The position numbers were made by a program, and so were the translations under genes. From Pecten maximus (lineage: Eukaryota), in contig NC_047024.1 in NCBI RefSeq assembly GCF_902652985.1, positions 29,140,001 through 29,204,000 of the forward strand: DNA of 64,000 nt. Reading direction: 5' to 3'. Of the stretch, positions 5,522 through 53,167 are shown piece by piece. Positions within the stretch are counted from its first letter, which is position 1. Each line of letters starts with the position of its first letter. The notes beneath the pieces were generated by a model. The model saw nothing but the letters and a program-made list of their open reading frames with translations, was not told the DNA's origin and did no database searches.

Positions 5522-5527
5522 ACAAAA

Positions 5528-23822: not shown

Positions 23823-23827
23823 TTATC

Positions 23828-29317: not shown

Positions 29318-30634
29318 ATGAAGATTTGGCTTCTAATCCTGTCTGTGTCAGTGACAACCATAAATGGCGCAACGCATGAAGACTTGACTAGACTTCACCA
29401 AATGTTGATGACAAATTATAGTAAGGACTTGCGTCCAACATTTAACTTGTCGCAGCCAACAACAGTATATGTCGGATTTCAGTTGATATCGTTGAAAGAA
29501 TTTGAGGAAAAGAAAAGCAAATTTGCTGTTGTTGGTATGTTAATGATGGCGTGGCATGACTTTCAAATGCAATGGAATCCTGATGATTATGGTGGTATAG
29601 ACCACACGTTTCTTCCTCAGAGCTCTGTATGGAAACCTAACTTTGTTATGTTGAACCCGTATGATAAAATTGAGCTTCCGGGTTTTGACAGCCTAAATAT
29701 CAATGTTAATCACTATGGGTCAATGGTGTGGGCTCCGCCTGATGTTTACGCTGTCACGTGCTCAGCGGATGTTACATATTATCCGTTTGATCAGCAGACA
29801 TGTTCCATATACTTTAGTCCCTACATGTATACTGTAACCGATGTGATTCTTCAGCCATTGTCACCTGATATTACCTTAGATTATTACTACCCAGACAGTC
29901 TTTGGGAGATAAAAGACACCAGTTGTACTGTGGTAACTGAAATGAACTCTCAAACACTGGCACTGACGATGGTACTTAAACGACGACCAATGTTTCAAGT
30001 TATAAACACAATAGTACCTTTCTGTATTTTGGGACTGTTGAACATCATGGTGTTTCTTCTTCCGGCCGAGTCTGGTGAACGTATTGGGTTTTCTGTGACC
30101 GTTCTGCTAGCTATTGCTGTGTTTATGACCATCGTGTCGGACACTCTGCCTGGAACCAGTGAACCTTCTTTCCCTCGATTGTGTTATTTATTGACAGCGG
30201 AACTCTGTACCAATATGCTTGTGACTATTTCTACAATCTCGGTATTACGGATGTATCATAAACCCAAGCATCAAAAGATTCCAACTTGGTTACAATCCGT
30301 AATTTGCAAATGTGTTTGCGCAAACGCCAAAAATAAAATTGAGAAAAGAAAAATATCAAACAATGAACAGAAAAATCGAATGACCGTTTCTATTGAATCG
30401 GTTCTATCCAAACTTCCTGAATCAGAAAAAGTGATGGCGGTAAGTGAAAGGAATGAGGAATGGAACAGCGATGTTACGGTTAAAGGGAACAGTGATATCC
30501 AAGAAAAAGAAAAACATATTTGTGGTAAAACGTCATGGCAGAGTGTTGCACAATACCTCGACATCTTTCTTTTTGTTTTATTCATAGTCATTTTTTCATC
30601 AAACAAAATCGTTGCTTATTATGTATTTTCGTAA
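29318..30634 (+). CDS. Intronless nAChR-like Cys-loop receptor subunit (gene A), 438 aa, intact
   Basis: Signal peptide MKIWLLILSVSVTTING, NYSKDLRP, WKPN, Cys-loop CSADVTYYPFDQQTC, four TM helices, ESGERIGFSVTVLLA. No vicinal Cys in loop C. Confidence 0.96.
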   Translation: MKIWLLILSVSVTTINGATHEDLTRLHQMLMTNYSKDLRPTFNLSQPTTVYVGFQLISLKEFEEKKSKFAVVGMLMMAWHDFQMQWNPDDYGGIDHTFLPQSSVWKPNFVMLNPYDKIELPGFDSLNINVNHYGSMVWAPPDVYAVTCSADVTYYPFDQQTCSIYFSPYMYTVTDVILQPLSPDITLDYYYPDSLWEIKDTSCTVVTEMNSQTLALTMVLKRRPMFQVINTIVPFCILGLLNIMVFLLPAESGERIGFSVTVLLAIAVFMTIVSDTLPGTSEPSFPRLCYLLTAELCTNMLVTISTISVLRMYHKPKHQKIPTWLQSVICKCVCANAKNKIEKRKISNNEQKNRMTVSIESVLSKLPESEKVMAVSERNEEWNSDVTVKGNSDIQEKEKHICGKTSWQSVAQYLDIFLFVLFIVIFSSNKIVAYYVFS

Positions 30635-33129
30635 GAGGATACCCATCAACTTTATTATAAATGAAACATATATAAACATGTAGTTGTGACTTTCCAAAAC
30701 TATTCACGTTGAATTTAGGTGATTACCAAAAGCATTAATAAATGGATGTACCCTTCTGTATATACTGCTGTTACTTCGTCTGATTTATCATTATATCATG
30801 TTTAATAGTAACCATTACCGAGATCTGTATACAATCAATACCAAGCTATTGTCGATATCACCTTAGCTGTAGATAGGACGTGAAACAATACAAAACCAAA
30901 ACAAATCAATATTTCCAAAGCGGTATTATTGAGTGACCTTTTGCCGTGGGACGGAGTCTGACGTCTGTCAAATTTTCCTTAAAAATGGCTACAAGTTAGA
31001 AACAACTTAGATTTTGAAGCATCATTTGGTGAATGGGAACCAGTTCCTTCTGTATGAATAAAAGGATTCAGCCGAAAGGATAATCAAGCAAAGGGAAACA
31101 AAACAATGAACCAAATAGGAGAAATATAGCAATTTCTTTAAAATCATTGTTCTGTAGGGATTAAAGGATCTGGCTCCACAGATCTTTGGGCGACGGAAAA
31201 ATAATTTGTATCTACGGTTAGTCTGGGTCCTAGGAAACTGAGGGACAGAATTATATGGGGAAATATAGCAACGACATTATGTCGCAAGGTTGAACAGTCA
31301 ACTGACCACAGGTTAAAGGTTATGATTAAATTTTGTATCTTTCCACTGATGAACATTTTCATGACATGAACTAATTGGAACAAATGTTAAGGTCACTGGG
31401 TCAATGCTTTAAGGTCGGTTAATGTGTTGTTCACTGATGACATTTCGTCATAACATTATGAAACAAATTTTGTCTGAGTTAAACATAGTGTCTACTGACC
31501 ACTGATTAAGGTTACTGTGTTCAAGGTCAAATGTTCACTTTTCAATCTTTTATGAAATTATGAAGCAAAGTTGGTTTCAGCATCGATAATTTAAAAATTC
31601 ATTTCAAATTTGTTAGCATCTTAGTGAAGCAAAAACCCATTTTTATACACTCTGGTATGTCTCGAAAAGTGGAAAGAATTCAAAGTTTTCGTCATGAGAG
31701 AACCTCAACTAAAGGCAAAAGGTGAGGCAGTGTCAAGGGAAAAAGTAGGAGGAATCCAATTACTAGAAAGAAGTGAAAATATAAGATCCCAAAATTATTT
31801 GGCTCTTGCGATGCAATTGGACAGCAGGTACAATTCTTACTATCTACCAGCAGGGCAGGTTTGGATAATACATAAATTACTAAATCATTTTTTCACTTTT
31901 TGTAAGCCAATTCATACTGTTGTAAGCATGAAACATATATATAGATAAATAAAGTGTGTGAACAAAGCTTGATCATTTTTTAATGTCTATAAACGCATCT
32001 AGGTATCCCTTTTGTATATGTCCCAAAGGGGTGTTGGATAATGCGAGTTTTAGATCGATATATCAAGACATACACAATAAATATAAAAACAGTGAGACAT
32101 GTTTACTTTGTTTCCATTAGTAACTAATAGTGCCATTACCCATATTACCCCAAGCATACTATTCCACCCTTCATTAATCACATACATTGACATACCTCTT
32201 TAACTATTTGAATAGGGAATTCTGAATTCTAGTAGACAATGTAAACATTATTCGATTCCATTTGTAGTTTGATTCGTGTTGACTGTCTGGAATTACAAAA
32301 GCTCACATAACAAAGCTAGCATGGAAAATGATGATATAGCTGGTATACTAATGGTGTCGTTAATGTGTTTTAAGTGCCTTCATATATCGATGTTTACTTA
32401 TCTCTGTGGTGCCCATTCTCTTCTTGTTTTGTATCAATAGCAATTATTACTGATATTGATATTTCAGATAATTTGTTGGAATGATAACACTGATGAATAT
32501 CATTTTAAGTGACGTGTGTAAATATATATTGATAAAACATAAATATATTTCATCATATCAAATGTTTCCCTAATGTTATCCATCTTTATAATGTTCATGT
32601 TTATTCTCTATTGCTGTTACTGTACTGTGACAGCACTGTAAACAGTCATACAAAGAGCCAGTAATTATGGGATTACGTTGGAGTCGCCTTTGATCGAGAC
32701 GTAAAGAGAGGGGTTTTATTTTTTATAACTGCGACAAAAGCAAGTAATATATCTAATTGATTTTACATCATGAAACTATAACGACATTGCAAAATCATAT
32801 ATTATCATACAGGCGAAATTACGAAAAAATGCAATGGGCAATTGGTTTGTCGGACATCCTTACATCACCACACAATGAAAATAAAAACGGAAGAGCTAAC
32901 AGAAACTTGTCAATCAATGGCTATTATCTTGACTATGCTCCAACTGATAATATGATAAATGCGTTATTCCCAAACAGCCTGCTTTCTTATCATTTTATTT
33001 TATCTTATTTTATTTTCGTTTATCTTCTGGTTCCAGGTCGATCTCCACTTTGTGCGAAATACATGTATGTGGTGAATGTGTATGTTTTGGGAGGTTGCAA
33101 TATGTTCGTGTTTGTCTTCTTTTGATATT

Positions 33130-33235
33130 ATGGTACTGATGTTGACTTGATTATGCTACCTCACTGAGGCGGAGACATCCAACAGGACACCACACTTTGT
33201 CACATAATACTGACAACGGGCAAGCCAGTGTTCTA
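33130..33235 (-). mobile_element. Decayed SINE fragment (same family as 25055 and 50440)
   Basis: TGCTACCTCACTGA...GTCACATAATACTGACAACGGGCAA is the reverse complement of TTGCCCGTTGTCAGTATAGTGTGAC seen at 50466. Confidence 0.6.
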
Positions 33236-35739
33236 AACATGTTGCCGATACAAGTCATCCTATTCTAGATCAGATTCAAATTAGAGTTCTCAGCATGAAG
33301 CTTTATATGTCATCGCAGGGAACAAATCACATCATTCATTTAGTTAAGCTAAGGTTATATTACAGTAAATAGAGCAATTTTGCTCGTACTCCATCGAATA
33401 CAGAAAATAAAGCAATGTTTGTACTCCATGGAATGTTCCCACTACTAATTTTTATATATACCAGGTAATGACCTTTGCTTAGATAACGAAGGAAAAATCG
33501 GGAAAGATAACGTTATTTGGCCATGGTCCCTTTGTCGCTACGTAATAACAAAAAGTGGGGTTTTTTTCTCCTACTGCTTCCAATTAGAGTCGGACTCTCC
33601 GCTTGCACAAAAATGAACCCTATTGAACACGGGATGTTGTAGACTTATGATTATTTCATCAACCTCCTCTGCATCCAGGGAGACCAGACTTCGTTGATAT
33701 AGTTAAATTTTGATCAAATGTCTTTATTCGTACAAACGTTAACCTCTATTTAAACGAGACCAACCCGAAAATATATCGCATCCCCCCAAAATACACACAA
33801 ATGCATCTCGTATATAGGTGAGGCAGTCCGTAAATGACAAAAGCTGTTTACATGACGATAAACAATAAAAACGCATTTTATTAACACCTGATCCGTGTTT
33901 TCTACTATTTTTTGGTATTAAGCTCTCGTGTTATAGATTTTGAAATATCAGAATTGATTATTTATCAGCTTTATATAAATTTAATTCATATATATAATAA
34001 AGTATTTTCCCATTTCAACATTTTATATGACACGTACACTGGATACTGAGCTCGGCCCGGTACATTAATGATGTATAAAACTATTGAGCAGTAACATTGT
34101 ATTATCAAATAAGGAAAGAAAACTAATTTTGAAATGGTTATTGATCTGAGCAGTATTTTGGAATCATACATTGTAGTTAGCAGTTGCCTTGTTAATTATT
34201 TTAAAACATATTGGAGTATTTTATTTAACGTATGATTTTCTAGTTAATTGTGCCACGTATGACGTTATTTTTTTTTTTTTATTTATTTACTTCTTTTTTT
34301 TTTTATTCTTTTTTTTTATTTAGTTTTAAGCAAAATCTAACCTTTAACTTTGGCAGAGATGTTAATTGGTTGAGAACGGTCAAGGAGATTTACTGTCTTT
34401 ATACCGAGGTAAATGCTTTTATGAAGCTAGAAACTTGTTGGAAAGATTGACATTAAAAAAACCTGCAACTAATAATACGACAACATCGTTTGTTAACTCA
34501 CCAGAAATTACTAGGTATCCCTATGACGTTACAGTGATTATTATCTTCACATAAAATATATGATAGGCTTATTTCTGGGTTTAACATATTTAGTGTATTA
34601 TTGCATTGTTTATCATTTTGCATGAATTATATAATTCTAGTTCTCCGTATGAAAACAAACGATATCAGTCCAGTAGCAATATTCGGGATTTAGGTTGAAT
34701 GTCAATTTTCCACTGCACGCAGAGATATAATATGGTTGTTTTCACTTAATAATGCCATATTCTGTACTACTGTAAAGGAAGAGCATACACAATGTAAAAA
34801 TTGTACCTGCCAACGCATTATAGTGACATTATATAGACACTATAGGTAGGATTTTACGCTGGATTATTAACAAGGAGGCAGAATTCAGTTTTTGGCAGAT
34901 GTTAAACTGAAGGCCAAAGATGAGGCAGTATCAATGACTAAGATTCAAGGAATGCTGTTTGATATCGTTGTACGTCCTGTTTACACATTAACTTTAAATG
35001 GCATTAATCAGAGAAAGTTTTTACAACATTTAGTTAGTTGCTACATTAAGGTCATAGGGGCCAAACATTGTAAAGTTTTGATCATATACCAAAGCATAGC
35101 AAGTCTAAACATTCTTTTCAAAGCTGTTAGCATATAGCAAAATTTCAACTATCTTTACGCTGCTTGCTTGTATCACAAGATTTGAGTGGCCATGGCCATT
35201 TTCTTTTCTTTCTTTCTAACTATAAGAAACTATATGTTTCGTTAGTTTGATATTGCTTTTTTGTACATTTTGCACATTTTTCTCACCGTATTCTGTACGA
35301 GTGTTAATTGTCAGCTAGGAGTCAATTAATGATGAATTAATAGATAAATATATATAAAATGTCAGAGAGTGATTCCATGTGTCCGTTAACAACAAACAGT
35401 GGATACACAAGCTTCAGGTTTTAGGTTATCTCCCGTTGACCAGTGTGCACCAACTTGGAACAATGGCATATTTCAACTGTCAGATAGTTACGGTTAATGA
35501 TAATTAAACCGTGTATGAACCCGGTCCAGCCATCATATAAGCAGAACTATTCCGAGAAAAGAGTATTTTAATACATCTTGGACTTATCCTTGAACTTGGA
35601 TTCTTTATTCTTCTTGTTATTTAATTATTAGAGGACAGTGCAAAAGATATTTGGAATATCTCAAAACAAGCTTAGTTATGGATACAGTACGGCCAAAATG
35701 GATTAAACTGCTTATAGTTGTTTTGTCTTTCCAGTGCTT

Positions 35740-35997
35740 GTCAGTGATGCTGATGACCCTAAGTGCCTAGAATGCGAACACAGAACTCAAATATGGGTCA
35801 AAATAAATGTCAAAATCAGGATTGGGAGTTACAAAAACCCATGAATCAATCAATAAACATTTCCCATCGTCAGTGATGCTGATGACCTTAAGTGCCTAGA
35901 ATGCGAACACAGAACTCAAATATGGGTCAAAATAAATGTCAAAATCAGGATTGGGAGTTACAAAGACCCATGAATCAATCAATAAACATTTCCCATC
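35740..35997. repeat. 129-bp tandem duplication (2 copies, 2 mismatches)
   Basis: 35740-35868 versus 35869-35997, GTCAGTGATGCTGATGACC...AATAAACATTTCCCATC. Confidence 0.95.
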
Positions 35998-37125
35998 GGA
36001 ACATGAGCTATAAATTTGTTTAGGCCATCACTGATTGTTCAATGGACACTTTCACTGAAATAACACACAAATGGACATGGCAGCCGTGTACGTGAATATA
36101 ATTTTTTTTCAGATTGATTTATACATATATTAAAACAGCAAGATTATTAAATGCACTCTTTTATTGGAACAAAAAAAGTACGTCTGGCTATCAATCTTGA
36201 AATATTTAATAAAATTCATAACTTGTACATTTTATTGTCTTAAATTATAATAAAGTACAAGTTATTGAACCCGGATTCACCTGCACAAATGCTAAAACAT
36301 ACAGTTTAGAATAGAATAGCAATCGATATAGATGCTAGATAAAAATTTGATACTGTCAAGAAAAACTAAAGAAATTAAGAACTCCAATGGTTATAAAAAA
36401 CAGTATTGACATAAATCGACGATGTCACCTTTCTTTTTTCCTCTCTTTTGATTCTTAAAGTATAACTACTCAATGCAGAATTAATAAATTGATGGAATTC
36501 CGGAAATCTCTCATGTCAAAAATTTACATTTCCTGCTTAAGATTAATTGATGTTCGACGAATGTTGTTAATAGTCTTTCACACTTTCACACGTAAAAATA
36601 TATACAGGTCTTAAATATGCAAGACGTGACTACATACATCACGTGGTGCTTAACTAGATATATAGATCTAATCTATTTACTTACATTCTAATTATAAAAA
36701 AAACTCTTCAGCATATTCTCTTCTTTCTACGAAATCTACTGATATTGAACATGAAAGACGTCTTACCGTCAATAATGATGTATTGGTCCATTAGCTCTTT
36801 CCTTGTGATCATTTCCACATTTCGCTTATTAACAAGAATGACAAAAAAAATAAAGGAATATTCTCGGATTCAAATAATAAACTCGAAAACTGTATGCTTT
36901 TTTTTTTTTTTTTTTTAGCCTTAATTGGAATCACCCGGATATCAACATCCGATAAAGTAGAGTTTAGTGCTTGCAATTGTAAATTTACTGATAGACGATA
37001 CAACAACTGTCACGATATACATAGGTTCTCATCTGTTCAAGCACATGTTTCTGCAAAACATGGTTTGGCTATAGCAACTAAAGAACAGTATGTGTGTATT
37101 TACAGTGAAGACGAAAAAAAAAGTT

Positions 37126-38430
37126 TTATGTAAATATAAAATAAGCAGCTATTTTACTTGATCCGAAAATTAATATGAACAAAACAAAGAAAAATACATC
37201 GAGAAATTTTGCCACATCCTGCCATGATGTTTCACAATAAATGTGCTTTCTTTTTGTTTGCATCATTCCGTTTCCATTGCAGTTGCATTTGTGATCCCTC
37301 TTGTTTTCTATCTCGGCACCATCGAATTCCTGAATTTTAGTCACAGCTGTTTCATTACGGATATTGTTTTCTCTGTTCAGATGTTTGTTGTTTTCCTCGA
37401 TTTGCTTTTCGGTTTCTTTAATGTTGCCCCAAAAACTTTTACAAATGATATATGTCAACCAAGATGGAATCTTCTGGTGCTGGGGTTTATGATGCAGTCT
37501 TAATACTAAAATAGTACAAATTGTCACAAGCATATTGATACCAAGTTCTGCTATCAAGAGATAACATAATCGAGGGAAAGAAGGCTCACTGGTTCCAGGC
37601 AGAGTGTCCGCCACGATAGTCATAAACACAGCAATAGCTAGCAGAACGGTAACGGAAAATCCAACACGTTCACCGGACTCAGCCGGAAGAAGAAACACCA
37701 TGATGTTCAACAGGCCCAAAATACAGAAAGGTACAATTGTGTTTATAACTTGAAACATTGGTCGTCGCTGGAAGACCATAGTCAGTGACAGTGTCTGGGA
37801 AGCCATGATAGTTGAGACATGAGTATTAGCAACTTTCATTTCCCATAGAGTGTTTGGTGTATAATAATACATGTCAATTTCGGAACGTTCTGGTTCCAAA
37901 AACACTTCAAACACTGAATACATGTACATACTGAAATAAAATGAACACGTTTGTTGATCGAACGGATAGTATGTGACGTCAGCTGGACACGTAATGTCAT
38001 ACACATCTAGAGGGGACCAGAATACATATCCCTCTTTACTTACAAGGACTTTCAGCTTGTCAAAGCCTTGAGGTTCAATTTTCTCAAATGGATTCAAAAG
38101 TAAAATATCTGGCTTCCACACCTCATTCTGTGAAAACATCATACGATCAATGCCACCAAAGTCATCAGGGTTCCATTCCAATTGAAAGTCATGCCAGAAC
38201 ATTGCAAAGAATCCAACAATAGAAAATTTGCTCTTCTTTTCTTCGAATTCCTTCAATGAGAGAAGATAAAATCCGATATTCACTTTTGTTGGCTCCGAGA
38301 GATTCAAGGTTGGGCGGAATTTCGTGCTGTAATTCGTCATCAAGTGTTGATGTAGTCTTGTCAGATCTCCATGCATTGCTCCGTATATCGTTGTGAATGA
38401 CATTGAGAGAAAAACTAGTAACGGCACCAT
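37126..38430 (-). CDS. Intronless nAChR-like Cys-loop receptor subunit (gene B), 434 aa, intact
   Basis: Signal peptide, WKPDILLLNP, Cys-loop CPADVTYYPFDQQTC, ESGERVGFSVTVLLA, four TM helices. Confidence 0.96.
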   Translation of the reverse strand: MVPLLVFLSMSFTTIYGAMHGDLTRLHQHLMTNYSTKFRPTLNLSEPTKVNIGFYLLSLKEFEEKKSKFSIVGFFAMFWHDFQLEWNPDDFGGIDRMMFSQNEVWKPDILLLNPFEKIEPQGFDKLKVLVSKEGYVFWSPLDVYDITCPADVTYYPFDQQTCSFYFSMYMYSVFEVFLEPERSEIDMYYYTPNTLWEMKVANTHVSTIMASQTLSLTMVFQRRPMFQVINTIVPFCILGLLNIMVFLLPAESGERVGFSVTVLLAIAVFMTIVADTLPGTSEPSFPRLCYLLIAELGINMLVTICTILVLRLHHKPQHQKIPSWLTYIICKSFWGNIKETEKQIEENNKHLNRENNIRNETAVTKIQEFDGAEIENKRDHKCNCNGNGMMQTKRKHIYCETSWQDVAKFLDVFFFVLFILIFGSSKIAAYFIFT

Positions 38431-39400
38431 GCTTTCCTGTGTCGTTTGGGTATATCAAACAGTAGCATAACCTGTTTCATAAAAACATTACTAATCAATA
38501 TGATTCTGAGCTACATTGGATATTTTGTATGTTTTGTTATTGGCCAACAAGCACAAGACAATTCCCTCGCTTTATGAGATCGATAAACAACATAATGCCG
38601 CTTTCACACTCACTTTTAATGGGTAATCTATGTTTAATAGGAAACATATATTCTCTCACACTTAACAGGTTCCCATTTGCCTTTTATTCTGAAAAAATCA
38701 TGACTAACAGGTGATGAAGTTATCACTTTATACGCCATGATTATATCACAATCAAGTCATGTTCATGACATATCATATTACGGCCTACATCACGTACAAT
38801 ATCTAACAGAAAATTGTCAGAGAGAAATAATATATGTTAAATCAAAAACTTAAAGCGTTACAAAATACGATACAACATCAAACAAACAAAACCCATGTCT
38901 AGTTTAAAACAAAAACGTGGCGATGGTTACTCAAATTTTGTGAAACAGACCAACAGTTTTTAGATACTTCAAAATTTTGTATACTTGTGTAATGTAGATA
39001 CGACATCTAACGACAAGAACAACATACGATATATGTTTGTTTTACGAAAGGAGGAGTGCCATTTTGGGCCTTCTGGGGGCTATCAATTGTACGTTTTATT
39101 ATATATATATTATATATATATACATAGAAACCTTGAGGTAAGATGGTATGACACTAAATTAAGGTCAGAGATCATTTCATGAGGGGTAAAATTGATGGTC
39201 AATTTTCCGACTATATTAATATATATACTATTTTGTGCCTTACAACACTTAAGAATAATATATTAATCAGCCTGATATAGCACATCCAACTGCCTTATTA
39301 ATAGGGTATCTCACTTGAGTGAATGATGCAATGATGACTGAGTACTGGTCAAAGTCTGAAAGTGACAGTGAATGAAGGTCACGCATTCTTACTTGTCGTT

Positions 39401-39530
39401 GGGGACGCGGGGCCGAGTGGTTAAGGTGCCCCGACACTTTATCACTGGGTTACGAGTTCGAAACCTACGTGGGGCAGTTGCCATGTGATGACCGCAGGCC
39501 GGTGGTTTTTCTCCGGGTACTCAGGCTCCT
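39401..39530 (+). mobile_element. tRNA-derived SINE (V-SINE-like), 5' part
   Basis: A box GGCCGAGTGG, B box GAGTTCGAAAC, followed by the V-domain-like GGTGGTTTTTCTCCGGGTACTC. Paralogous to 61254-61428. Confidence 0.75.
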
Positions 39531-40934
39531 GAGGGTGTCCTTTTGATCTTGTATTTGCCCCTTAATGACTGAAATTGTGTAGGGGCCATACAATATTACA
39601 ATACAAGTGCACACTATGAACGTGTATGAATGGCTCGTTTAAATGCCTTCATTCCCAATTGTTTCATGAAAATGACATCAATTATACTTCATGCAAAGAA
39701 ACTTGTTCAATTCTGTTGCATTCCTTTCTTTCCAAATCGATTCATTCAGATAGAATTCAGATAAGAGGTACATTCTTTCAAATGGTTCCATTAAAGATGA
39801 AAAGTTTTATTACTCAGAACTAGTAAATGTATCGATTTCCATTAATACCATTAAACTATGTATTAGATAGTCTTTTGAAATATATGCTTCATGGCTGCAA
39901 TACAAACAGGGTGTAATCCCTTTTTAAATTGTAGTACGTTCAAATCGGATATATTTTAAAGCCAACAAAAGACAGCAGATGCTGTAATTGCATGGTAAGT
40001 ACTTGGTGTATAACTAGTATTTACTTGTCGTAACTATCGTTGAATCCTTGTGTATCAATAATATTGTCGAAATTGTGTCCATTGTCTTCGTTTTGTTAGA
40101 TCAATATACCAAGTATACTGTAATTCAAACCATTTCAGTCGATTTGTTGGATTTTGTTGTCACAAATTTCACATAGAGCGACCCAAGAGCCATGAATCGC
40201 TGAGGTTAAATACGTATTTGAGACTTGTGATCTTGAAATTGTCCAAATTCATTTCACTTGAACGAACTTGGTAGCCCTGTGTCTCAGCTAGCCACTTAGG
40301 TAATATGACCGTGGATTCCCAGCATGCTACTGAACCAAAATGAAGATCTTAGTCTTTTTTCTTACTAGTAAATGGTTTAAATACGTACAAATAAATGCGA
40401 TACACTTGTTCAACTCTCTTAGAAACTGGAGAAACGTGCTGTCAATTCTTCTCTTTATACACGTACCGTTGATGAAGTATTCAGTGTGGCTAATCAGGTA
40501 CTCTTGGAAGATTTATAGAGCAAGTGTTAATGGCCATGCTTCGGTATTGGAACTCTTCGGTGTTTTAGATATCGAAGTCGGAACATTTAGAAATGAGGAA
40601 ACGTTGATACACGAATGCGATTAGTCGTATTAATCAAAATACAAAAATGTAATTATTTACAGATGATTTCCAAAGGCATAGGGTATCGTGCAGAACATTT
40701 TCTGTTGTACATACAAGTTTGTAGATTTAACACTTTGGTAAAACAACCGTCCTACTCGTTGCCCTGACAGCTGATCCAAGCTAGGATGACAAAGTGCAAG
40801 TTGAAATTTTAAGATTTTACATTCCTACCTCGTATTGATTGATGTTGTTTTATCATATCTGATCACTTTAAACATAGGAAAACTAACAAAAACACTGAAA
40901 AACACAGAATTAGGCCTTTGTGTCAGACTGTAGA

Positions 40935-42853: not shown

Positions 42854-44132
42854 TTACATAAATATAAGATAAGCGGCTAACTTGCTTGTTCCAAAAACGG
42901 CTATGAATAAAACAAAGAAAAAGACGTCGAGAAATTTCGCCACATCCTGCCAGGATGTTTCCATCTGTCCATTTTCATTGCAGTTGCATTCGGAATCCGT
43001 CATGCTTCCTGTCTCGATTCTATCTGATTCAAGAATTGTAGACACCGTTGTTTCCGAACAAATACGGTTTTGTTTACTTAGAATTGTGTTGGTGTTACTT
43101 TTCTTTTTGCGTTCGTTTTTTGTTTTAGCTTTGACACAAACTCTTTTACATATGATATATTTCAACCAAGACGGAATCTTCTCTTGCGGGGGTTTATGAT
43201 ACAGTCTTAATACTAATATAGTACAAATTGTCACAAGCATATTGGTACAGAGTTCTGCCATCAAGAGATAACATAATCGAGGGAAAGAAGGCTCACTGGT
43301 TCCAGGCAGAGTGTCCGACACGATAGTCATAAACACAGCAATAGCTAGCAAAACTGTCACGGAAAATCCAACACGTTCACCGGACTCGGCCGGAAGAAGA
43401 AACACCATGATGTTCAACAGTCCCAAAATACAGAAAGGTACGATGGTGTTAATAACTTGAAACATTGGTCGTCGTTTAAGTACCACCGTCAGTTCCAGTG
43501 TTTGGGTATCTGCTAGTGTGAAGACTCTACTTCTTGCAGATATCATCTCCCAAAGACTGTTTGGATAATAGAAATCCAAATCAATTGCAGATGAGCTCGT
43601 TTCAATAAACACATCGAATAACGTATACATGTACATGCTGAAGAAGAATGAGCATGTTTGCTGATCAAACGGATAGTATGTAATATCAGCTGGACACGTG
43701 ATTTGATATACATTTGGAGGGCCCCAGAATGTGGATCCGTCATTATCCACAGCGATCTTAAGACTGTCAAAGCCGGGAGGTTCAACATTATCAAATGGAT
43801 TCAATAGTAAGAGATCTGGTTTCCATATGGTTTTCTGTGAAACAAATATACGATCAATGCCACCAAAGTCATTAGGATTCCATTCCAGCTGACAGTCATG
43901 CCAAGTCATTACAGATATTCCATTAATGGAAAATTTGCCTGTCTTTTCTTCGAATTCCTTCATTGAGAGAATAAAAAAATCCAACATTCACTTTTGTAGG
44001 CTCCGATAGATTTAACGTAGGGCGTAATTCCGTGCTATAATTCGTCATCAAGTGTTGGTGTAGTCTTGCCAAATCCCCCTGCATTGCTCCGTATATGGTT
44101 GGCACCAAGAGAAAGAATAGCAACGACATCAT
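42854..44132 (-). pseudogene. Intronless nAChR-like subunit (gene C) with a +1 frameshift in a T7 run (pseudogene or sequencing error)
   Basis: ORF 43923-44132 carries the signal peptide and NYSTELRP; ORF 42854-43987 carries the rest. Removing one T from GGA-TTTTTTT-ATT (A run 43973-43979) restores GFFILSMKEFEEK, collinear with gene B GFYLLSLKEFEEK. Confidence 0.9.
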
Positions 44133-44669
44133 GATTACCTGTACCGTGCTGGTATGTCGGAATCAGTAGCACTACTTGCTTAAATGGAACATTATCAATC
44201 AATATAAAAACAGAGGATGTTATATCATTGGGGAAAACGTAGCAGATAACGCATTGACATTGTTAAACAGATTGAGAGAAATTGTAAAGCCTTCAGCATC
44301 AAAGAAATGAACCGCTACATAAGCATTTCCCCTGTACAAATAAATACCCTGTCGCTATGTATATATACATATATACTGAAACGAAAAAGAAACGCAACAT
44401 GGAAAATTGTGATTAATTTTGTATTAAATATACATATCTGTATAAAAATCGCGGAAATAAACATGCACCCTGCCTAACACCCATACCAATCTTCAAAATC
44501 ACCCAAGTGTGACTAGAGACCTATGCACTTCCGGCGCGGTAAAAACATCAAAAACCGTGCCTGTACAAACATATGCGTTCTTTTTTCATTCAAACCAGTA
44601 TCAATTCATCACTAACATTGAGCCACATCATCGCCAATACTTTTGCAAACAATAATTCCTTTTACAATT

Positions 44670-45551
44670 ATGCCACGGTTATCAAAGGTTGATAGAGGAC
44701 GTGCTATAGCGATGCTTCTGGCAGGGAACACGCAACTTCACGTCGCTCGACAATTCAGAGTTCACAAATCGACTATTAGTCGATTAGTTTCACGTCTTAA
44801 CGCAACAGGAAGAGTCGATGACCAGCCGAGATCAGGACGTCCACGCGTAACGTCGCGACGTCAAGACCGGGTTCTTAGGTTGGCACACCTGCGTAACAGG
44901 AGATTAACGGCCGCTGAAACGGCAAGGAATACGATTGGTAATCATAACCGTCGAATTCATCCCCAAACAGTGATCAACAGACTGTGTGAGGCTAATTTGC
45001 GTGCAAGGCGACAGTACGTTGGTTTACCACTAACACCGCAACGTCGAGCACGTCGTATGCAATGGGCAACGGCACATATGCCCAGACGTTTTCCTATGAG
45101 ACGTTGGAGGTCTATGCTCTTCACCGATGAATCTCGATTCACGTTATTTCGAGCAGATGGCCGTCAACGTGTGTACCGGCGTCGAGGCGAACGTTTTGCT
45201 GACGCCTGTGTTTTGGAACACGACCGATTTGGGGGTGGATCAGTTATGGTTTGGGCGGGAATCTCCCATGGTTTGAAGACGCCTTTGGTGATAGTCAATG
45301 GGAATTTAACGGCCGTACGCTATCGGGATGAGATCCTTAGGCCCCATGTTGTGCCGTTTGTTAGGCAGCATCATCTAACCTTTCAGCAAGATAACGCGAG
45401 ACCACACGTTGCAAGAGTCTGTAGAGACTTTCTTGCGACACAGAACATTGTTCCTATAGATTGGCCTCCATATAGCCCCGACCTGTCCCCATCAAATTGT
45501 AGGTTTAATAAAATAATACTTGTGAGCATTATGTTTAAATTTCATATGTAA
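44670..45551 (+). CDS. C-terminally truncated Tc1 transposase (lacks catalytic Glu)
   Basis: MPRLSK... with paired-like HTH, GRPR, FTDESRF, QQDNARPH and WPPYSPDLSP. It then switches at 45492 to an unrelated 19-aa tail (SNCRFNK...). Confidence 0.9.
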   Translation: MPRLSKVDRGRAIAMLLAGNTQLHVARQFRVHKSTISRLVSRLNATGRVDDQPRSGRPRVTSRRQDRVLRLAHLRNRRLTAAETARNTIGNHNRRIHPQTVINRLCEANLRARRQYVGLPLTPQRRARRMQWATAHMPRRFPMRRWRSMLFTDESRFTLFRADGRQRVYRRRGERFADACVLEHDRFGGGSVMVWAGISHGLKTPLVIVNGNLTAVRYRDEILRPHVVPFVRQHHLTFQQDNARPHVARVCRDFLATQNIVPIDWPPYSPDLSPSNCRFNKIILVSIMFKFHM

Positions 45552-45689
45552 TAGTTAATATTGAATATTGATGTAACATCCTTTAAATGTTTAGAGATTT
45601 TTAAGAACAGGTCACTTTGCTAGAAGGTCATGATTGGTAGTACCCTACGTGAATCCAAGTTGAAATGGCAGCAGTTTTGAAACCGTGCC

Positions 45690-46709
45690 CTAATATCGTG
45701 TGTGTCCTCCTCGAACAGTTATCACATCTCTAATTCTTTGTTGCATTGAGTTCATCAGGGCATTGACTTTCCGTATTGGAATGTTATTCCATTCTTGGAC
45801 GAGTACATTTGCTAACTGAGGGAGGGTATTTGGGGGGTTACGGCGATTTCGAATTCTTCTGTCTAATTCATCCCACAAATGCTCGATTGGGGACAGGTCG
45901 GGGCTATATGGAGGCCAATCTATAGGAACAATGTTCTGTGTCGCAAGAAAGTCTCTACAGACTCTTGCAACGTGTGGTCTCGCGTGATCTTGCTGAAAGG
46001 TTAGATGATGCTGCCTAACAAACGGCACAACATGGGGCCTAAGGATCTCATCCCGATAGCGTACGGCCGTTAAATTCCCATTGACTATCACCAAAGGCGT
46101 CTTCAAACCATGGGAGATTCCCGCCCAAACCATAACTGATCCACCCCCAAATCGGTCGTGTTCCAAAACACAGGCGTCAGCAAAACGTTCGCCTCGACGC
46201 CGGTACACACGTTGACGGCCATCTGCTCGAAACAACGTGAATCGAGATTCATCGGTGAAGAGCATAGACCTCCAACGTCTCATAGGAAAACGTCTGGGCA
46301 TATGTGCCGTTGCCCATTGCATACGACGTGCTCGACGTTGCGGTGTTAGTGGTAAACCAACGTACTGTCGCCTTGCACGCAAATTAGCCTCACGCAGTCT
46401 GTTGATCACTGTTTGGGGATGAATTCGACGGTTATGATTACCAATCGTATTCCTTGCCGTTTCAGCGGCCGTTAATCTCCTGTTACGCAGGTGTGCCAAC
46501 CTAAGAACCCGGTCTTGACGTCGCGACGTTACGCGTGGACGTCTTGATCTCGGCTGGTCATCGACTCTTCCTGTTGCGTTAAGACGTGAAACTAATCGAC
46601 TAATAGTCGATTTGTGAACTCTGAATTGTCGAGCGACGTGAAGTTGCGTGTTCCCTGCCAGAAGCATCGCTATAGCACGTCCTCTATCAACCTTTGATAA
46701 CCGTGGCAT
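45690..46709 (-). CDS. Full-length Tc1 transposase (339 aa from first ATG), DD34E
   Basis: FTDESRF ... QQDHARPH ... SPDLSPIEHLW, with 34 residues between the second D and the E. C-terminus RGGHTRY is typical of Tc1. Confidence 0.95.
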   Translation of the reverse strand: MPRLSKVDRGRAIAMLLAGNTQLHVARQFRVHKSTISRLVSRLNATGRVDDQPRSRRPRVTSRRQDRVLRLAHLRNRRLTAAETARNTIGNHNRRIHPQTVINRLREANLRARRQYVGLPLTPQRRARRMQWATAHMPRRFPMRRWRSMLFTDESRFTLFRADGRQRVYRRRGERFADACVLEHDRFGGGSVMVWAGISHGLKTPLVIVNGNLTAVRYRDEILRPHVVPFVRQHHLTFQQDHARPHVARVCRDFLATQNIVPIDWPPYSPDLSPIEHLWDELDRRIRNRRNPPNTLPQLANVLVQEWNNIPIRKVNALMNSMQQRIRDVITVRGGHTRY

Positions 46710-49679
46710 AATTGTAAAAGGAATTATTGTTTGCAAAAGTATTGGCGATAATGTGGCTCAATGTTAGTGATGAATTGATACTGGTTTGAATGAAAAAAGA
46801 ACGCATATGTTTGTACAGGCACGGTTTTTGATGTTTTTACCGCGCCGGAAGTGCATAGGTCTCTAGTCACACTTGGGTGATTTTGAAGATTGGTATGGGT
46901 GTTAGGCAGGGTGCATGTTTATTTCCGCGATTTTTATACAGATATGTATATTTAATACAAAATTAATCACAATTTTCCATGTTGCGTTTCTTTTTCGTTT
47001 CAGTATATAATATAGTAGAATTAACACTCAAAGTCTCCGTAAAGAGATGCTAGTACTGTCGTCGGATTATGTATTGATATGTGGTGGATTATTAACTTCT
47101 TCAAAAATGAAAAGTATTCTCCTCATTAAAATAAAAAAAATATTTGTTGTCAGACCCACCTTTCCGGTACTCTGTAAGCGAAGTTGCCGACCGCCATCTT
47201 TTTAAATACCTTATTGGTAGGATACCACAGAGTCCTAAAAGTGTTTCAGCATAAAGCACATTGAAATTATAAGATTATTTTATTCAACGTATGTATGGTT
47301 GCCATTATTCAAATTATTACTGCAGTTAAATCAATAAGATGATGACTTGTTCAATCAATCTTAATACACGACCATGCCCCATGTTTGATGACATGTAACA
47401 TACCGTCCATGGATGTGAGTATCATTGTAGCGAAATGTTCGTTATTTTTGTACCGAACATTTCATCTTTTCATTCGGATGATTTAGAAGTAGATAGTCAG
47501 CATTTTTGTGTATGACATGGACTATTTCTGTCATTATCGTTAAACCGTAAAACAGATTCCAGTAGACATATTTCGTGTTGTTCAGTTTGTGATGTACATG
47601 TATTTGTTTGAATTCTATATCTAATGGGGTTTTTTTGTTTGTTTGTTTTTGTTTTTGTTTTGTTTTTTTCGAAACCTCCATTTACTTTATGTCTCTAATA
47701 GTTTTGAGCGTTATACAATGAGTATAAAACTAAGGTTTCGAGATGTTTCCATTATGATAAGTTCATGTATTAAACGGTATTCACATTTTCTATGTTAATG
47801 ATTTTCTATATAAGCAATACACCTCTAAAAATCAGTAACGTACATTCCAAAGGGATATGTTTCACGAATGAGTATGTAACAAAATATATATACTACAATA
47901 TTAACATGAATTATTCACTTTAAGGACGGAAAATGGACAAATCTCGAGCAGAAATCCAAAATCCATATAGCGAAAGATTGAATGCAATGATGCGGAAGGG
48001 TACATTAAAAATAAGGGGATCGAAAAACTATGTTCCCCCAGACCACTTTTCTTCTGTTACGCAAATAAACGGGGCTTGAAGCAAAATGTGGCATGGAAAA
48101 GACCAAGGAAACAAAAAGAAAAAATATGAAACTGAATCGATCACTACGGAAGACGATGTTGTCAGAGGAAATAGAAACAACGCTAACATGGAAAGGGCAC
48201 CTGACCCTACAGAGCGTTTTGTACAAACGCCTTTGTAAAAGCTGGAAGACGGAAAAGGATAAGTCGGGCACTATCGAAAAATCCAAGAGAATATATGAAG
48301 CCCAAGGAAAACCAAATATAAAACGGCACAGCGGAAGTTGCAGCGGTGCAAAAGAAAACTAAATCGCCTATTACTTCTAGTAAAGTAGATACGCAACTTA
48401 GGAAAGCTTGAATCAGTAGAGAACATGGCAGGAAGGTAAGAAAGCAGCTTCTGATGTTACATGTCCTGACAAGAGAAATAAAATCAGCAAAGGAAGGGAA
48501 TAACGTGGCTAAACAAAGGATATTACTTACTGTCATTGCTGGTAAAGTTATCAAGATATACAGGTGTGCTGTAGATATGATGAAAAGAGTAAGTGAAGAC
48601 AGACGACAATAATATGCCCCTTTGCATTGGGAGTTCTGACTATCTTTATATAGGTCGATAAATAGTAAATTCGTCAAACTTCGGAATGCGTATGTGTAAT
48701 GCGATTTTGTAAGTAACAATAATAACCGTCAAGAATATGTCTATTTGGCAAAATTGACAAGGAGAAGCTGTAATTCTAATTTATGAAGAGACCCCATGTT
48801 CATATGAAAAGCTAATAATAAGCATTGCTAATTCTAAAATCATATAGCCGCAAGAAAAACAACATATAATCTGCCGTTTTTCATTTACAAAAGTCGACTT
48901 GTCCATTGTAAAAATAGGATTGCCAGGGAAATTTTCGTTGTAATGGAGAAAGGCGAAACGTGAAAATTTGCTCCGAATGGTCAAAATGTTTGAAATAACA
49001 ATGCAATATTCTGCCTCATTTATGGATGAAAAAGATAACTGAAATATCGCTGCGGTCCATGTTCTATATAAAAAATAAAGATAGTATATGGAGCGCAACA
49101 AAAATCTTTCCTTACCCGACCTACTTTCTATCGCGTCAGAATAGAGACCCCCGTGATGAGTGGCGAATCGCAATTAATTACGATTTCGATCGTTACAGAA
49201 AATGGCGGTATTTTTTATTCCCTTGCGTTCCTTATTGCTGTTAACCTTTTATTGTTTTGTTAATTGAATATTATTAGGTACCATAATCGTAATTTTTCAA
49301 ATGCTTTTATCTGTAAAATCTATTATCATAGATTTAATACCGCCTTATGTGAATCCCATCATGCTTGCTACACTATCGTTATCAGAATTGGCTTGATATT
49401 CTGTCGGAGATTAGTGTGAAGGAAGAACATATATATTCATTCTACATTACACACGTGTCCAATCGAAACTACAAACTGAGTACACAAAACTACTGTACGT
49501 GAAGAGATAAGTTGCTAATGGATTCGATAAACGTAATGGAATGGTAAACAAGTTTGTTATAGGATTTGTGAGTAATAGCCGTATTCTCTTCAGTCGAAAC
49601 ATTAAAAAGAATGTCAATCAATTTGGAAGCATAAACTGGTTGAGTGTTCTATAAATAGATTAAGGTTATCATATGGCGA

Positions 49680-50035
49680 TACCTACTTACGCATGGCCAC
49701 TGCCTCACTTTTGGCCTTCTTTTGAGCGTTCGCCTCTGTGAAGAAGATTTTGGTTCTGTCCCCTGGCCGAGACAAATTAGAGCTTATGAATATGGTATTG
49801 CTATTTCTGTTTAGTGCTCAGCATTTTAGGAGTTGGACGACTTGTTCTACCGTTGTCGGCGCAACGTCATGTTTGGCGCCTTTCGCAGTATGCTTCAGTG
49901 TAGTGGGCATCAGAAACACGATCATACACCAGCCTTCTAAAAAATATGCACATTCACCACAAGCATGAATCTAGCACACTTGGGCCGTCTTTAAATGTCC
50001 TTAGTTGATGTCTTTAATAATACAAAACGAAGAAA
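49680..50035 (+). mobile_element. Decayed SINE (Meta-SINE-like)
   Basis: CCCTGGCCGAGAC...GTGCTCAGCATTTTAGGAGTTGGACGAC...GCAGTATGCTTCAGTG. Its 5' segment (CACTGCCTCACTTTTGGCCTT) recurs reverse-complemented at ~31712 and ~34910. Confidence 0.6.
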
Positions 50036-50438
50036 CAACCTACTTGCATGGGGTCAACCTAAGGACAAATTCCGTGGAAACGTCATGTTTGGCATCTTCT
50101 CTGGGTCATTATTCTGACAGTGGATTAAGCCAGTCACCTACTGCTGCGTCAAGCAGGGTGCATTAGGTACAATGTTAATGACACTTCGTACAGAACGTAT
50201 CACTTCAAACGGATGAAAGTTCAGATTAAAAATGAGACAGTATCAAGCGAGGCTACAAGAGCGCAAAGAAATATAATCATGAGTGCAGAAAGATTTTACA
50301 TAGCTCACAGTTCTGAGTGATTTCACCGTTTTCTTTTATGCATGTGGCATTAGATAGAGCCTATGAATAAGGTCAGAAAAAAATATCGTAGAAGCCGGTT
50401 AATCACGGCCACCTGTATCTGGGTTCCATTTCTACTAT

Positions 50439-50535
50439 GCATTTTGGGAGTTGGACTGCTGGATTTGCCCGTTGTCAGTATAGTGTGACCGGGTGGAGTG
50501 TCCAGTTGGGTGTCTTTGGCAGTATGCTTCAGTAA
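50439..50535 (+). mobile_element. Decayed SINE core fragment
   Basis: GGGAGTTGGACTGCTGGATTTGCCCGTTGTCAGTATAGTGTGACCGGGTGG...GGCAGTATGCTTCAGT. Confidence 0.65.
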
Positions 50536-51871
50536 AAATCATGTTGCAGTCTTCATGTTTAGTCTTTTTCCACGTAACATTGAGTTAACGTATTACTAAA
50601 TCCGTGCAAGAGCGGGAAAAGAATATGCCTGTTGTATCTTATTCGAAGTTGTAAGAGGCAATTTATTGTGGGGCCCCCGTAAGGTTGGGATGATTTCACC
50701 TTTGTTTTATGTTCAAGGGACATTGGAGAACCCAAAAATAATGGATAATAGTGGATGTCCTCCATCGTATTCTATTTTGAAGACCGAGATAATATTTTGT
50801 CCCCATAACAACACTTGAGATCTTAAAATTATCCTTTCCTTCCTTGCTGATTCAGTTTCGCGCTATCGCAAGAGAAAAACATAAACATACTGCAGCCTCC
50901 CAAAACACACATACATACAATATACGCATCTATCTCGCATACAGAGGAGATTGTGCTTAAATGACCTTAGCTGTTGATAGTATGTTAAACAATACAAAAC
51001 CAAAGTCTCACTGCTCTGTCTACTTTTTTTGTACTCCAGGCGCTTCCTGACACCCGTTCTAATATGACCCTGGTTGTTGCGAGCAAAAAAAATCTCGTTG
51101 ACTACATGAATCAATGCACCGGCTTAAGCATGAACCATAAATCACCTGTTCCAGAAAGTGCAATTTCCACATCAATTAATTTTGCAATTCAAGATGCATA
51201 TCTTTTTCGTGTTTGGCATTGATAAGATTAAGTTATTCAATTGTTTGTTTAAGTTGGTATATAATTCGTCAAGTAATTGTATTTTTTTTTTTTTTTTTTT
51301 TACCACATCTGAAAAAAATAGTTTCTCTCTTGTGCTGAACATCTAAAACATCTTTAGTCCTGTGATAAAGGACCGGGAACCATTTGCTCTACTAGAATAT
51401 ATAAACAACGGAATTTACTTTGTACGGTACATATGTTTTGATAAGATATAGAGGACAGACTATTTGATGCATACTTTAATAGGAGTTTTAATCTAAAATC
51501 ACAATTGTTTTACTTTTTGAGCGTGATATTTTGGACAGAATGAAAAGAAAATGTGAAAAGCGAGAAATTTACGTTGTGAACCTTGGAAACCACACATTCA
51601 TAATGTTTAAGAGAACAAAATACGGGCTCGTTTTTATACCCAATGATATATCCTTTTCGGGTTCAATATAGTTTCATCTGCAGCGTTAGAAAATCGCTTG
51701 GGCATTTGTGTAGGAAGATTGACCTCTTTAAATCGATCTCCTAAAGTGAAGGCATTACCTATATAAGTCACTTCTGTCACGTGATCTTGTTTTGAACCAT
51801 ATCGATTAATATTGCTCCATTTAAACAGGTAGTGATATCGGTTCTGACATAGCTGAACGATAGAGGCGAAC

Positions 51872-53167
51872 ATGATGCCATTACTATTCATTCTCTCAGT
51901 GTCACTGACAACCATATTCGGGACAATGCATGGAAATTTAACTAAACTACATCGGCACCTGATGGCAAATTATAGTCCAGAATTCCGTCCTGCGTTAAAC
52001 CTCTCAGAACCAACAACGGTGAATATCAAGTTTTATCCATTCTCGTTGAAGGAGTTCGAAGAAAAGACCAGCAAGCTTTCTATAGTTGGAGTATTTGTAA
52101 TCGAGTGGCATGACTTTCAGTTGAAATGGAACCCGGATGAGTTTGGTGACCTAAATCGTATGCTGATTTCACAAAACACTTTATGGAAACCAGATATCTT
52201 ACTAATGAATCCGTTCGAGAAAATTGAACCTCCAGGCTTTGACAGGCTAAAGATCCTTGTTCTTAATGATGGATCCGTATCCTGGGCCCCTCCAGATGTC
52301 TTTGAGGTCTCGTGTGCAGCTGATATCACATATTATCCATTTGATCAGCATACATGTTTATTTCATTTTAGCATTTACATGTATAACATATTCGAGGTGT
52401 TGATAAAACCAGACTACTATGAGATAACTTTGGATTATTATTCACCAAACAGTCTTTGGAAAATGAAATTTGCAAGTAGTCGTGTACTCACACACACTGA
52501 CTCCCAGATACTGGTACTGAAGATGATTTTCCAGCGACGACCAATGTTTCAAGTTATCAATACAATATTACCGTTCTGTTTTTTGGGGTTTTTGAATATC
52601 ATGGTATTTCTTCTTCCGACTGAGTCCGGTGAACGTGTTGGATTTTCCGTTACCGTTCTGCTAGCTATTGCTGTGTTTATGACTATCGTGGCTGACACTC
52701 TGCCTGGAACCAGTGAGCCTTCATTCCCTCGATTGTGTTATCTTTTGGTGGCAGAGCTTGGTATCAATATGCTTGTGACGATTTGTACTATATTAGTGTT
52801 AAGACTGCATCATAAACCCCAGCACCAGAAGATTCCATCTTGGTTGGCGTACATTATAGGTAAAAGTGTTCGTTGTAACGCTAAAATGGGAAAAGGACAC
52901 AAACTAGATCTCATAAATGAAAGCAGCATTTGTCTTGAAACCACCGTGTCAACGATTTCAGAATCGGGAAAAGGAAACAAAAAGGACCTCGAATTGAACA
53001 TCGATTTAACTCCCAGTGGAAACGGTGTGACACAAACTCAAAGAAAACATGTTTGCTGCAAAACGTCATGGCAGGATGTCGCAAAATTTCTCGATTTATT
53101 TTTCTTTATTTTGTTCATGATATTTTTCGGAACAAGCAAGATAGCCGCGTATTTTGCATTTGCATAA
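51872..53167 (+). CDS. Intronless nAChR-like Cys-loop receptor subunit (gene D), 431 aa, intact
   Basis: Signal peptide, WKPDILLMNP, Cys-loop CAADITYYPFDQHTC, ESGERVGFSVTVLLA, four TM helices. Confidence 0.96.
   Translation: MMPLLFILSVSLTTIFGTMHGNLTKLHRHLMANYSPEFRPALNLSEPTTVNIKFYPFSLKEFEEKTSKLSIVGVFVIEWHDFQLKWNPDEFGDLNRMLISQNTLWKPDILLMNPFEKIEPPGFDRLKILVLNDGSVSWAPPDVFEVSCAADITYYPFDQHTCLFHFSIYMYNIFEVLIKPDYYEITLDYYSPNSLWKMKFASSRVLTHTDSQILVLKMIFQRRPMFQVINTILPFCFLGFLNIMVFLLPTESGERVGFSVTVLLAIAVFMTIVADTLPGTSEPSFPRLCYLLVAELGINMLVTICTILVLRLHHKPQHQKIPSWLAYIIGKSVRCNAKMGKGHKLDLINESSICLETTVSTISESGKGNKKDLELNIDLTPSGNGVTQTQRKHVCCKTSWQDVAKFLDLFFFILFMIFFGTSKIAAYFAFA

What the first reader, a model, noticed from the sequence alone, without database searches (positions are those of the whole stretch)
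29981..52790. Pore-coding DNA is homogenised between paralogs while ligand domains diverge
Seen, counted by eye: from RRPMFQ through M1-M2 into M3, B (37553-37767) and C differ at 9 of ~215 nt with a 58-nt identical run. A and C differ at ~12 of ~205 nt with a 59-nt identical run. The extracellular domains show dense third-position differences (about 80% identity B vs C, lower for A), with a sharp boundary at CGACGACCA. Protein constraint alone does not conserve synonymous sites. Inference: recurrent gene conversion gives a constant-channel/variable-sensor design, which would keep subunits co-assembling into combinatorial pentamers.
Basis: partly seen in the sequence, partly recalled or inferred. 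Interest (0 to 1): 0.7.

Follow-up and report, generated by a model that had tools for sequence, protein, structure and literature searches.

The report
Pore-DNA swapping among scallop receptor genes
In a cluster of scallop ion-channel genes, the DNA for the channel pore is far more alike between neighbouring genes than the rest of each gene, likely because neighbours copied that stretch from one another while keeping their own old, differing outer domains.

Summary
Four single-exon nicotinic-receptor-like genes (A-D) of a scallop have synonymous divergence of 0.16-0.47 over the pore segment (RRP to M3), against 0.71-3.2 over the extracellular domain (amino-acid-stratified p=3e-6). Proteins from two other scallops show a mosaic history. 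Gene A groups with Argopecten proteins in the extracellular domain and in the tail, but with its neighbour C in M1-M3; each region rejects the other grouping (AU). Contigs of four public runs carry the same segment and two further paralogs absent from the assembly. Segmental gene conversion is the best explanation (0.85).

The adaptive reading is not shown. Conversion is patchy and not fresh: 74-88% codon identity, and the 58/59-nt runs are not significant within the tract. Pore protein is as alike between species as within (87.5 vs 87.7%). Genome-wide, 10 of 15 clusters lean the same way (p=0.30) and three pairs are reversed. M4 and the intracellular loop are not homogenised. This is a known process (TLR1/6, opsins) in a known gene expansion; my searches found no report of it for Cys-loop receptors.

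The parts
29318..30634 (+). Gene A: single-exon nAChR-like subunit, 438 aa
   Evidence: PF02931 + PF02932
29981..30226 (+). Homogenised segment of A (codons 222-303, RRP to M3); identity with C starts at about 29969
37126..38430 (-). Gene B: single-exon nAChR-like subunit, 434 aa
37453..37767 (-). Homogenised segment of B (codons 222-326; core 37522-37767)
42854..44132 (-). Gene C: nAChR-like subunit, 425 codons; frame broken by one extra base in a T run near codon 52
43973..43979 (-). Homopolymer at which C shifts frame; run X2 has one base fewer (frame open), run X5 agrees with the window
43160..43474 (-). Homogenised segment of C (codons 222-326; core 43229-43474)
51872..53167 (+). Gene D: single-exon nAChR-like subunit, 431 aa
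52535..52849 (+). Homogenised segment of D (codons 222-326), with a 73-nt run identical to B at codons 250-274
22563..23827 (-). Gene E: more distant paralog (40% aa to B) with saturated silent sites in its TM segment; serves as local control; 5' end runs into the 100-N gap at 23828-23927

Best explanation
Genes A-D are old tandem paralogs of an intronless nicotinic-receptor-like family whose M1-M3 coding segment is much younger than their flanks, likely because interlocus gene conversion copied this segment between neighbours several times. Shown: silent divergence is 2-12 times lower over codons 222-303 than over the extracellular domain; the extracellular domain and the tail of A group with Argopecten proteins while its M1-M3 groups with C; the acetylcholine cage is absent and the pocket positions are the most variable part of the extracellular domain. 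Inferred: purifying selection keeps M1-M3 the longest high-identity stretch, so it remains the preferred and best-tolerated substrate for ectopic repair. Exchange in the diverged extracellular domain and the indel-rich intracellular loop would be rarer or purged. At least three events are needed to lower all six pairs, and a separate one is likely in Ylistrum. The likely outcome is a set of cation channels with one shared pore and different non-cholinergic ligand pockets, the pore being kept constant mainly by selection and the conversion being largely a by-product.
For: dS extracellular vs RRP-M3: A-B 3.2/0.26, A-C 1.6/0.28, A-D 1.7/0.47, B-C 0.71/0.16, B-D 0.98/0.27, C-D 0.88/0.42 (Fisher p<0.05 in 5 of 6 pairs). 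CMH odds ratio 6.9, p=3e-6; B-D silent run over codons 246-283, p=1e-4. (18 proteins): an A+C clade is rejected in the extracellular domain (AU p=1e-61) and tail (0.009) but accepted in the TM core; A+P0013+P0014 is accepted in both flanks and rejected in the TM core (5e-4); Ylistrum P0009+P0012 is accepted in the TM core and tail and rejected in the extracellular domain (0.016); the extracellular domain rejects a window clade (0.002); the TM core rejects the extracellular groupings (3e-4); position 236 is C in 11 of 11 window and Argopecten proteins and S or N in 5 of 5 Ylistrum proteins; in 24 unlinked cluster pairs with TM identity of at least 75% the TM/extracellular silent ratio has median 0.97, so protein conservation alone gives no dip; the window cluster has 0.59; contigs of runs X1, X2, X5 and X7 reproduce the segment; X7 contigs differ from B by exactly D's counts in 4 of 4 matching pieces.
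Against: Mean TM-core protein identity is 87.7% within species (35 pairs) and 87.5% between (83 pairs), and most nodes of the TM tree are weakly supported. C-D alone is not significant (p=0.09). Codon identity at conserved residues is 74-88%, well below the 96-99% of TLR1/6 tracts. Genome-wide the lean is not significant: 10 of 15 clusters (p=0.30), linked vs unlinked p=0.09; 8 of 60 'unlinked' pairs also show a TM dip at p<0.01 and 3 of 51 linked pairs show the reverse. The tail is intermediate (67% codon identity against 59% extracellular and 80% TM). A double crossover would leave the same trace.
Confidence: 0.85

Rival explanations
1. Adaptive design: selection favours conversion of the pore segment because it keeps subunits able to co-assemble into combinatorial pentamers with variable sensors.
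For: Pocket and loop C positions are much more variable than the rest of the extracellular domain (mean identity 0.29 vs 0.54, 19 positions, 0 of 10000 resamplings as low). The pattern recurs in Ylistrum and in 5 linked pairs of 3 other clusters at p<0.01. Octopus chemotactile receptors form homo- and heteropentamers (PMC11526382, passages).
Against: The M2 positions checked are invariant across three species without any need for conversion. M4, the intracellular loop and the extracellular domain, all implicated in assembly in Cys-loop receptors (PMC6719409, passages), are not homogenised. Reversed mosaics exist: L066-L067 p=9e-9, L050/L052-L056. The genome-wide bias is not significant.
Confidence: 0.25
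2. Silent sites in M1-M3 are under RNA-level or codon-level constraint, so they stay alike without any exchange.
For: Not excluded directly, since orthologous DNA is lacking. A weak general TM dip appears in some unlinked pairs, such as L022-L028/L032 and L036-L047.
Against: The segment folds no better than shuffles (z=-0.44 for B, +1.13 for A); 0 of 70 consensus pairs show a compensatory change, though 4 close sequences give little power. GC3 is the same in both domains, 0.35-0.40. Neighbours E, L010 and L011 are saturated in the same segment. A rate constraint does not readily explain the change of topology.
Confidence: 0.08
3. Assembly or polishing artefact: reads of paralogs were cross-mapped over the conserved segment.
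For: The assembly lacks at least two paralogs seen in run contigs and has a gap beside the cluster.
Against: Contigs of four runs from four studies show the same shared segment and break up over it. A 1410-nt X7 contig joins D's extracellular and TM parts with D's exact distances to B. One of the runs may be the window's own source. The protein mosaics in two other species come from other assemblies.
Confidence: 0.02
4. The genes are recent duplicates; the TM segment shows their true age and the extracellular domains diverged fast under positive selection.
For: Ligand-pocket positions are highly variable.
Against: Selection on residues does not raise silent differences at unchanged codons (28 of 46 fourfold sites for A-B). 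The extracellular domains and tails have closer relatives in Argopecten than in their own cluster: A-P0013 67% against A-C 58%.
Confidence: 0.03

Closest known systems
Intronless, tandem nAChR expansion of bivalves (Jiao et al. 2019, PMC6896357; first part of the text and passages read)
   Same: Single-exon nAChR-like genes in tandem arrays, most lacking the acetylcholine site; 97 such loci were scored in this genome.
   Different: The words conversion, recombination and concerted occur 0 times in that paper's main text; it treats the arrays as stepwise duplications.
Domain-restricted gene conversion in TLR1/TLR6 and avian TLR1A/B, TLR2A/B (Huang et al. 2011, PMC3125219; abstract and results section 17 read)
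   Same: Neighbouring receptor paralogs share a converted part while another part follows orthology; shown by codon identity at conserved residues and by split trees.
   Different: TLR tracts have 96-99% identical codons and paralogs pair up within most species. Here identity is 74-88%, the tract is an internal patch of about 250-320 nt, at least four paralogs take part, and species clustering is only partial.
Divergence maintained under gene conversion, red/green opsin model (PMC3924837, passages read)
   Same: Conversion lowers divergence except where selection or lost homology blocks it.
   Different: There a small peak stands in a converted background; here a converted trough lies in a diverged gene, which homology alone could explain.
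Cephalopod chemotactile receptors (PMC11526382, PMC13174522, PMC9068888; passages read)
   Same: Intronless, clustered, nAChR-derived subunits with a remodelled ligand pocket.
   Different: Placement in the CR clade was not tested; the best solved relatives are alpha7 nAChR, and no CR is among the best 60 of 78 hits. No ligand or tissue data.

Membership tests
Cys-loop / nAChR-like subunit | Ligand-binding domain PF02931 followed by transmembrane region PF02932 | tested here: met
   both domains above cut-off in 5 of 5 receptor ORFs
Cys-loop / nAChR-like subunit | Cys-loop (C-x13-C) | tested here: met
   both cysteines in 16 of 16 proteins
Cys-loop / nAChR-like subunit | Cation-type M2 start (Glu-Arg) and 9' Leu (meaning of the motif recalled, from no call) | tested here: met
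   E254, R255 and L264 in 16 of 16
Acetylcholine-binding alpha nAChR | Vicinal cysteines of loop C and aromatic cage (alpha7 W55, Y93, W149; numbering recalled) | tested here: not met
   loop C shortened, no vicinal Cys; no Tyr or Trp at the Y93 and W149 positions in 16 of 16
Bivalve intronless tandem nAChR expansion | Single-exon genes in a tandem array | tested here: met
   unbroken ORFs (C with one frameshift), 7 relatives within about 75 kb
Cephalopod chemotactile receptors | Phylogenetic placement in the CR clade | not tested
   no CR sequences were in hand; best PDB hits are alpha7
Cephalopod chemotactile receptors | Gating by environmental hydrophobic ligands in sensory cells | not testable with these tools
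   needs expression data and electrophysiology
Interlocus gene conversion (TLR1/6 type) | Excess of identical codons at conserved residues in one region | tested here: met
   350 of 435 in TM vs 391 of 667 in the extracellular domain (6 non-independent pairs); CMH p=3e-6
Interlocus gene conversion (TLR1/6 type) | Region-specific conflict of trees, flanks following orthology | tested here: met
   AU tests, proteins only
Interlocus gene conversion (TLR1/6 type) | Paralogs closer than orthologs across the tract in each species | tested here: inconclusive
   true for A-C (98% vs 89% and 94% to P0013 and P0014) but not on average (87.7 vs 87.5%)
Ongoing concerted evolution | Near-identity of the tract (96-99% of codons) | tested here: not met
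   74-88%; identical runs not significant within the tract for 5 of 6 pairs
Interlocus gene conversion (TLR1/6 type) | Orthologous dS not lowered in the tract | not testable with these tools
   no coding DNA of other scallops was obtained

The most novel reading that the evidence does not exclude
Scallops run a modular ionotropic chemoreceptor system: old, independently kept non-cholinergic sensor domains are repeatedly re-fitted by gene conversion with a common pore module, in parallel in several clusters and species, and this exchange is selected because it keeps the subunits gating and assembling together in mixed pentamers.
Probability: 0.2. Interest if true: 0.72.

Novelty: new member of a known kind. 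Interest (0 to 1): 0.42.

Why it matters
Whole-gene trees of the large bivalve nAChR expansion can misassign orthologs and understate ages, because the pore segment and the flanks have different histories; trees should be built per domain. The cluster offers natural chimeras with one pore and several ligand pockets, which suits de-orphaning a possible bivalve counterpart of octopus chemotactile receptors. It also gives a clean case for asking whether conversion in a multimeric channel is selected or is a by-product of homology.

Tried and rejected
Orthologous DNA: the scan of metagenome contigs gave 93 pattern matches and no relative. Run X7, labelled another organism, reproduced D's distances exactly and so is no diverged ortholog. 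Expression: no RNA holder listed. A paper search for a Pecten-Argopecten dS gave 3 listings, none evidently useful; none was read. The two primary octopus receptor papers are not held, so they are cited only through other papers. The AU table for the longer TM region (codons 222-324) was cut by the time limit. Searches of earlier findings returned nothing. No complex prediction was sent: a pass would follow from likeness to solved pentamers. Considered and rejected: RNA structure, base composition, polishing artefact, recent duplication. The 58- and 59-nt runs were rejected as separate evidence. Labels M2 16, 17 and 20 are off by one (15', 16', 19'); this does not affect the counts. Supplements of the papers were not opened; the alignments of PMC6896357 and PMC13174522 could bear on clade placement.
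Full report
Anatomy. The region holds four single-exon genes for Cys-loop receptor subunits: A 29318-30634(+), B 37126-38430(-), C 42854-44132(-) and D 51872-53167(+). A more distant paralog E lies at 22563 to about 23827(-). C has one extra base in a T run near codon 52; it was aligned with X at that codon. The window is G000:C10:29140001-29204000. A protein search of the genome scored 97 of 276 candidates, nearly all of them unbroken single frames and many in tandem groups. The nearest named relatives are from the scallops Argopecten irradians and Ylistrum balloti, and two neighbouring proteins of this cluster are listed under Pecten maximus. This is the known intronless nAChR expansion of bivalves (PMC6896357).

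Observation. NG86 dS for the mature extracellular domain against codons 222-303 is A-B 3.2/0.26, A-C 1.6/0.28, A-D 1.7/0.47, B-C 0.71/0.16, B-D 0.98/0.27 and C-D 0.88/0.42; the values for A are near saturation and imprecise. Using only third positions of unchanged residues, 5 of 6 pairs differ at p<0.05 (C-D p=0.09). Over codons invariant in all four proteins and stratified by amino acid, the odds ratio is 6.9 (p=3.3e-6). GC3 is flat. The silent change-point begins at codon 212-214, so the edge is near, not exactly at, the RRP codons. The low-divergence stretch ends near codon 303 for A and near 326 for B, C and D; M4 is not included. The long runs add nothing once the tract's identity is allowed for (p=0.15 and 0.38; B-D 0.02). 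Codon identity at conserved residues is 80% in the tract, 59% in the extracellular domain and 67% in the tail.

Other species. Trees used 18 proteins: 4 from the window, 7 Argopecten, 5 Ylistrum and 2 outgroups, picked from the 29 hits and the members; the more distant hits were left out. In the extracellular domain A is 67% identical to Argopecten P0013 and P0014 and 51-60% to B, C and D, so the split of A from the others is older than the split of these genera. In the TM core A is 98% identical to C and 89% and 94% to P0013 and P0014. AU tests: A+C is rejected in the extracellular domain (1e-61) and tail (0.009) and accepted in the TM core; A+P0013+P0014 is accepted in both flanks and rejected in the TM core (5e-4). 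The flanks agree and the middle disagrees, which is the mark of an internal exchange. Ylistrum P0009+P0012 are rejected as a pair in the extracellular domain (0.016) and accepted in the TM core and tail. All 5 Ylistrum proteins have S or N at position 236 where all 11 others have C. Against full homogenisation: species clades in the TM core are only not rejected (0.077), and mean identity is 87.7% within species and 87.5% between.

Genome-wide control. Among 97 loci, 4314 pairs were alignable. For pairs with TM identity of at least 75% and extracellular identity of 30-85%, the TM/extracellular silent ratio was below 1 in 10 of 15 tandem clusters (p=0.30; median 0.71; window cluster 0.59) and had median 0.97 in 24 unlinked cluster pairs (p=0.09 for the difference). 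At p<0.01, 9 of 51 linked pairs had lower TM divergence (4 of them in the window) and 3 had higher. Of 60 unlinked pairs 8 were lower; 7 of these involve a gene about 360 kb from its cluster, a near-copy of a cluster gene, or unplaced contigs. So protein conservation alone does not produce the dip, mosaics occur in several clusters, and they run in both directions.

Independent sequence data. Logan contigs of runs X1, X2, X5 and X7 fragment over the shared segment and carry its variants. X7 contigs differ from B by exactly D's counts in 4 pieces spanning both domains. This rules against a polishing artefact, even if one run is the window's own source. All four runs show two further sequences that follow B over about 146-149 nt with 13 differences and leave it at the RRP codons. 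Their upstream letters match none of A-D (compared by eye), three variant bases are in none of A-D, and a 22-nt tag from such a contig is not found in G000. The assembly thus seems to lack at least two paralogs that share the homogenised segment. X2 lacks the extra base of C, X5 has it.

RNA-level rival. The segment folds no better than shuffles (z=-0.44 and +1.13), and 0 of 70 consensus pairs covary (low power). The more distant neighbours are saturated in the same segment. The direct test needs orthologous DNA, which was not obtained.

What the proteins are. All 16 proteins of the clade keep the Cys-loop and an M2 with Glu-Arg and 9' Leu, read from recalled knowledge as cation-type. They lack the vicinal cysteines and the aromatic cage of alpha7, the best solved relative. 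Pocket and loop C positions are far more variable than the rest of the domain (0.29 vs 0.54 mean identity). A non-cholinergic, possibly chemosensory role like that of octopus chemotactile receptors is an inference (PMC11526382, PMC13174522; passages); a role as structural subunits is not excluded.

Mechanism. Shown: a younger M1-M3 patch inside older genes, in at least four paralogs. Inferred: repeated interlocus conversion, favoured where purifying selection has left the longest homology and blocked or purged where substitutions and indels have built up (as modelled in PMC3924837, passages). The events are of moderate age rather than continuous. That the exchange is selected to keep subunits co-assembling is possible but unsupported: the pore residues checked are constant across species anyway, and assembly also depends on domains that are not homogenised (PMC6719409, passages).

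Novelty. Domain-restricted conversion between receptor paralogs is known, for example in TLR1/6 (PMC3125219). Five full-text searches for conversion in Cys-loop, nicotinic or chemotactile receptors gave no report of it. The single mentions that I opened were reference titles or concerned protocadherins; the other listed papers were seen as listings only. The library lacks most subscription papers. Verdict: a real feature, new member of a known kind, interest 0.42.

Noticed in passing
window 44370-45491 and 45888-47009: Two copies of a Tc1-type transposon, inverted and 99.55% identical over 1122 nt, about 400 nt apart between genes C and D; one has an intact 339-aa transposase ORF, the other a 293-aa ORF with a foreign end.
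   Followed up: partly
window 43973-43979: The frameshift of gene C looks like a segregating allele: absent in run X2, present in run X5.
   Followed up: partly
window 37515-37775 (run contigs laid here) and gap 23828-23927: At least two paralogs seen in four runs are not found in the assembly; their contigs have about twice the word depth of D's, which is no copy number. The gap, which also cuts the 5' end of gene E, may hide them.
   Followed up: partly
L066 and L067 (G000:C19, 8.32-8.34 Mb): Reverse mosaic: extracellular domains nearly homogenised (silent differences 0.14) while TM segments are diverged (0.52), p=9e-9; L050/L052 against L056 are similar.
   Followed up: no
L057, L065, L068, L059 (G000:C18) and L062 (C1): Strong TM dip with only 41-47% extracellular identity, including a gene about 360 kb away and a near-copy on another chromosome.
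   Followed up: no
window 5520-21645: A 16-kb tandem array whose self-match offsets suggest a unit of about 40 nt, copies about 86% alike.
   Followed up: no
window 56172-60754: A 4.6-kb tandem array with a unit of about 33 nt that gives a spurious repetitive ORF at 59329-59793.
   Followed up: no
window 35740-35998: A 130-nt head-to-tail duplication, 98% identical.
   Followed up: no
window 29318-30634 (gene A): A's extracellular domain has a very short branch (0.055) against 0.36-0.44 for its Argopecten and Ylistrum relatives, suggesting unusually strong constraint on A.
   Followed up: no
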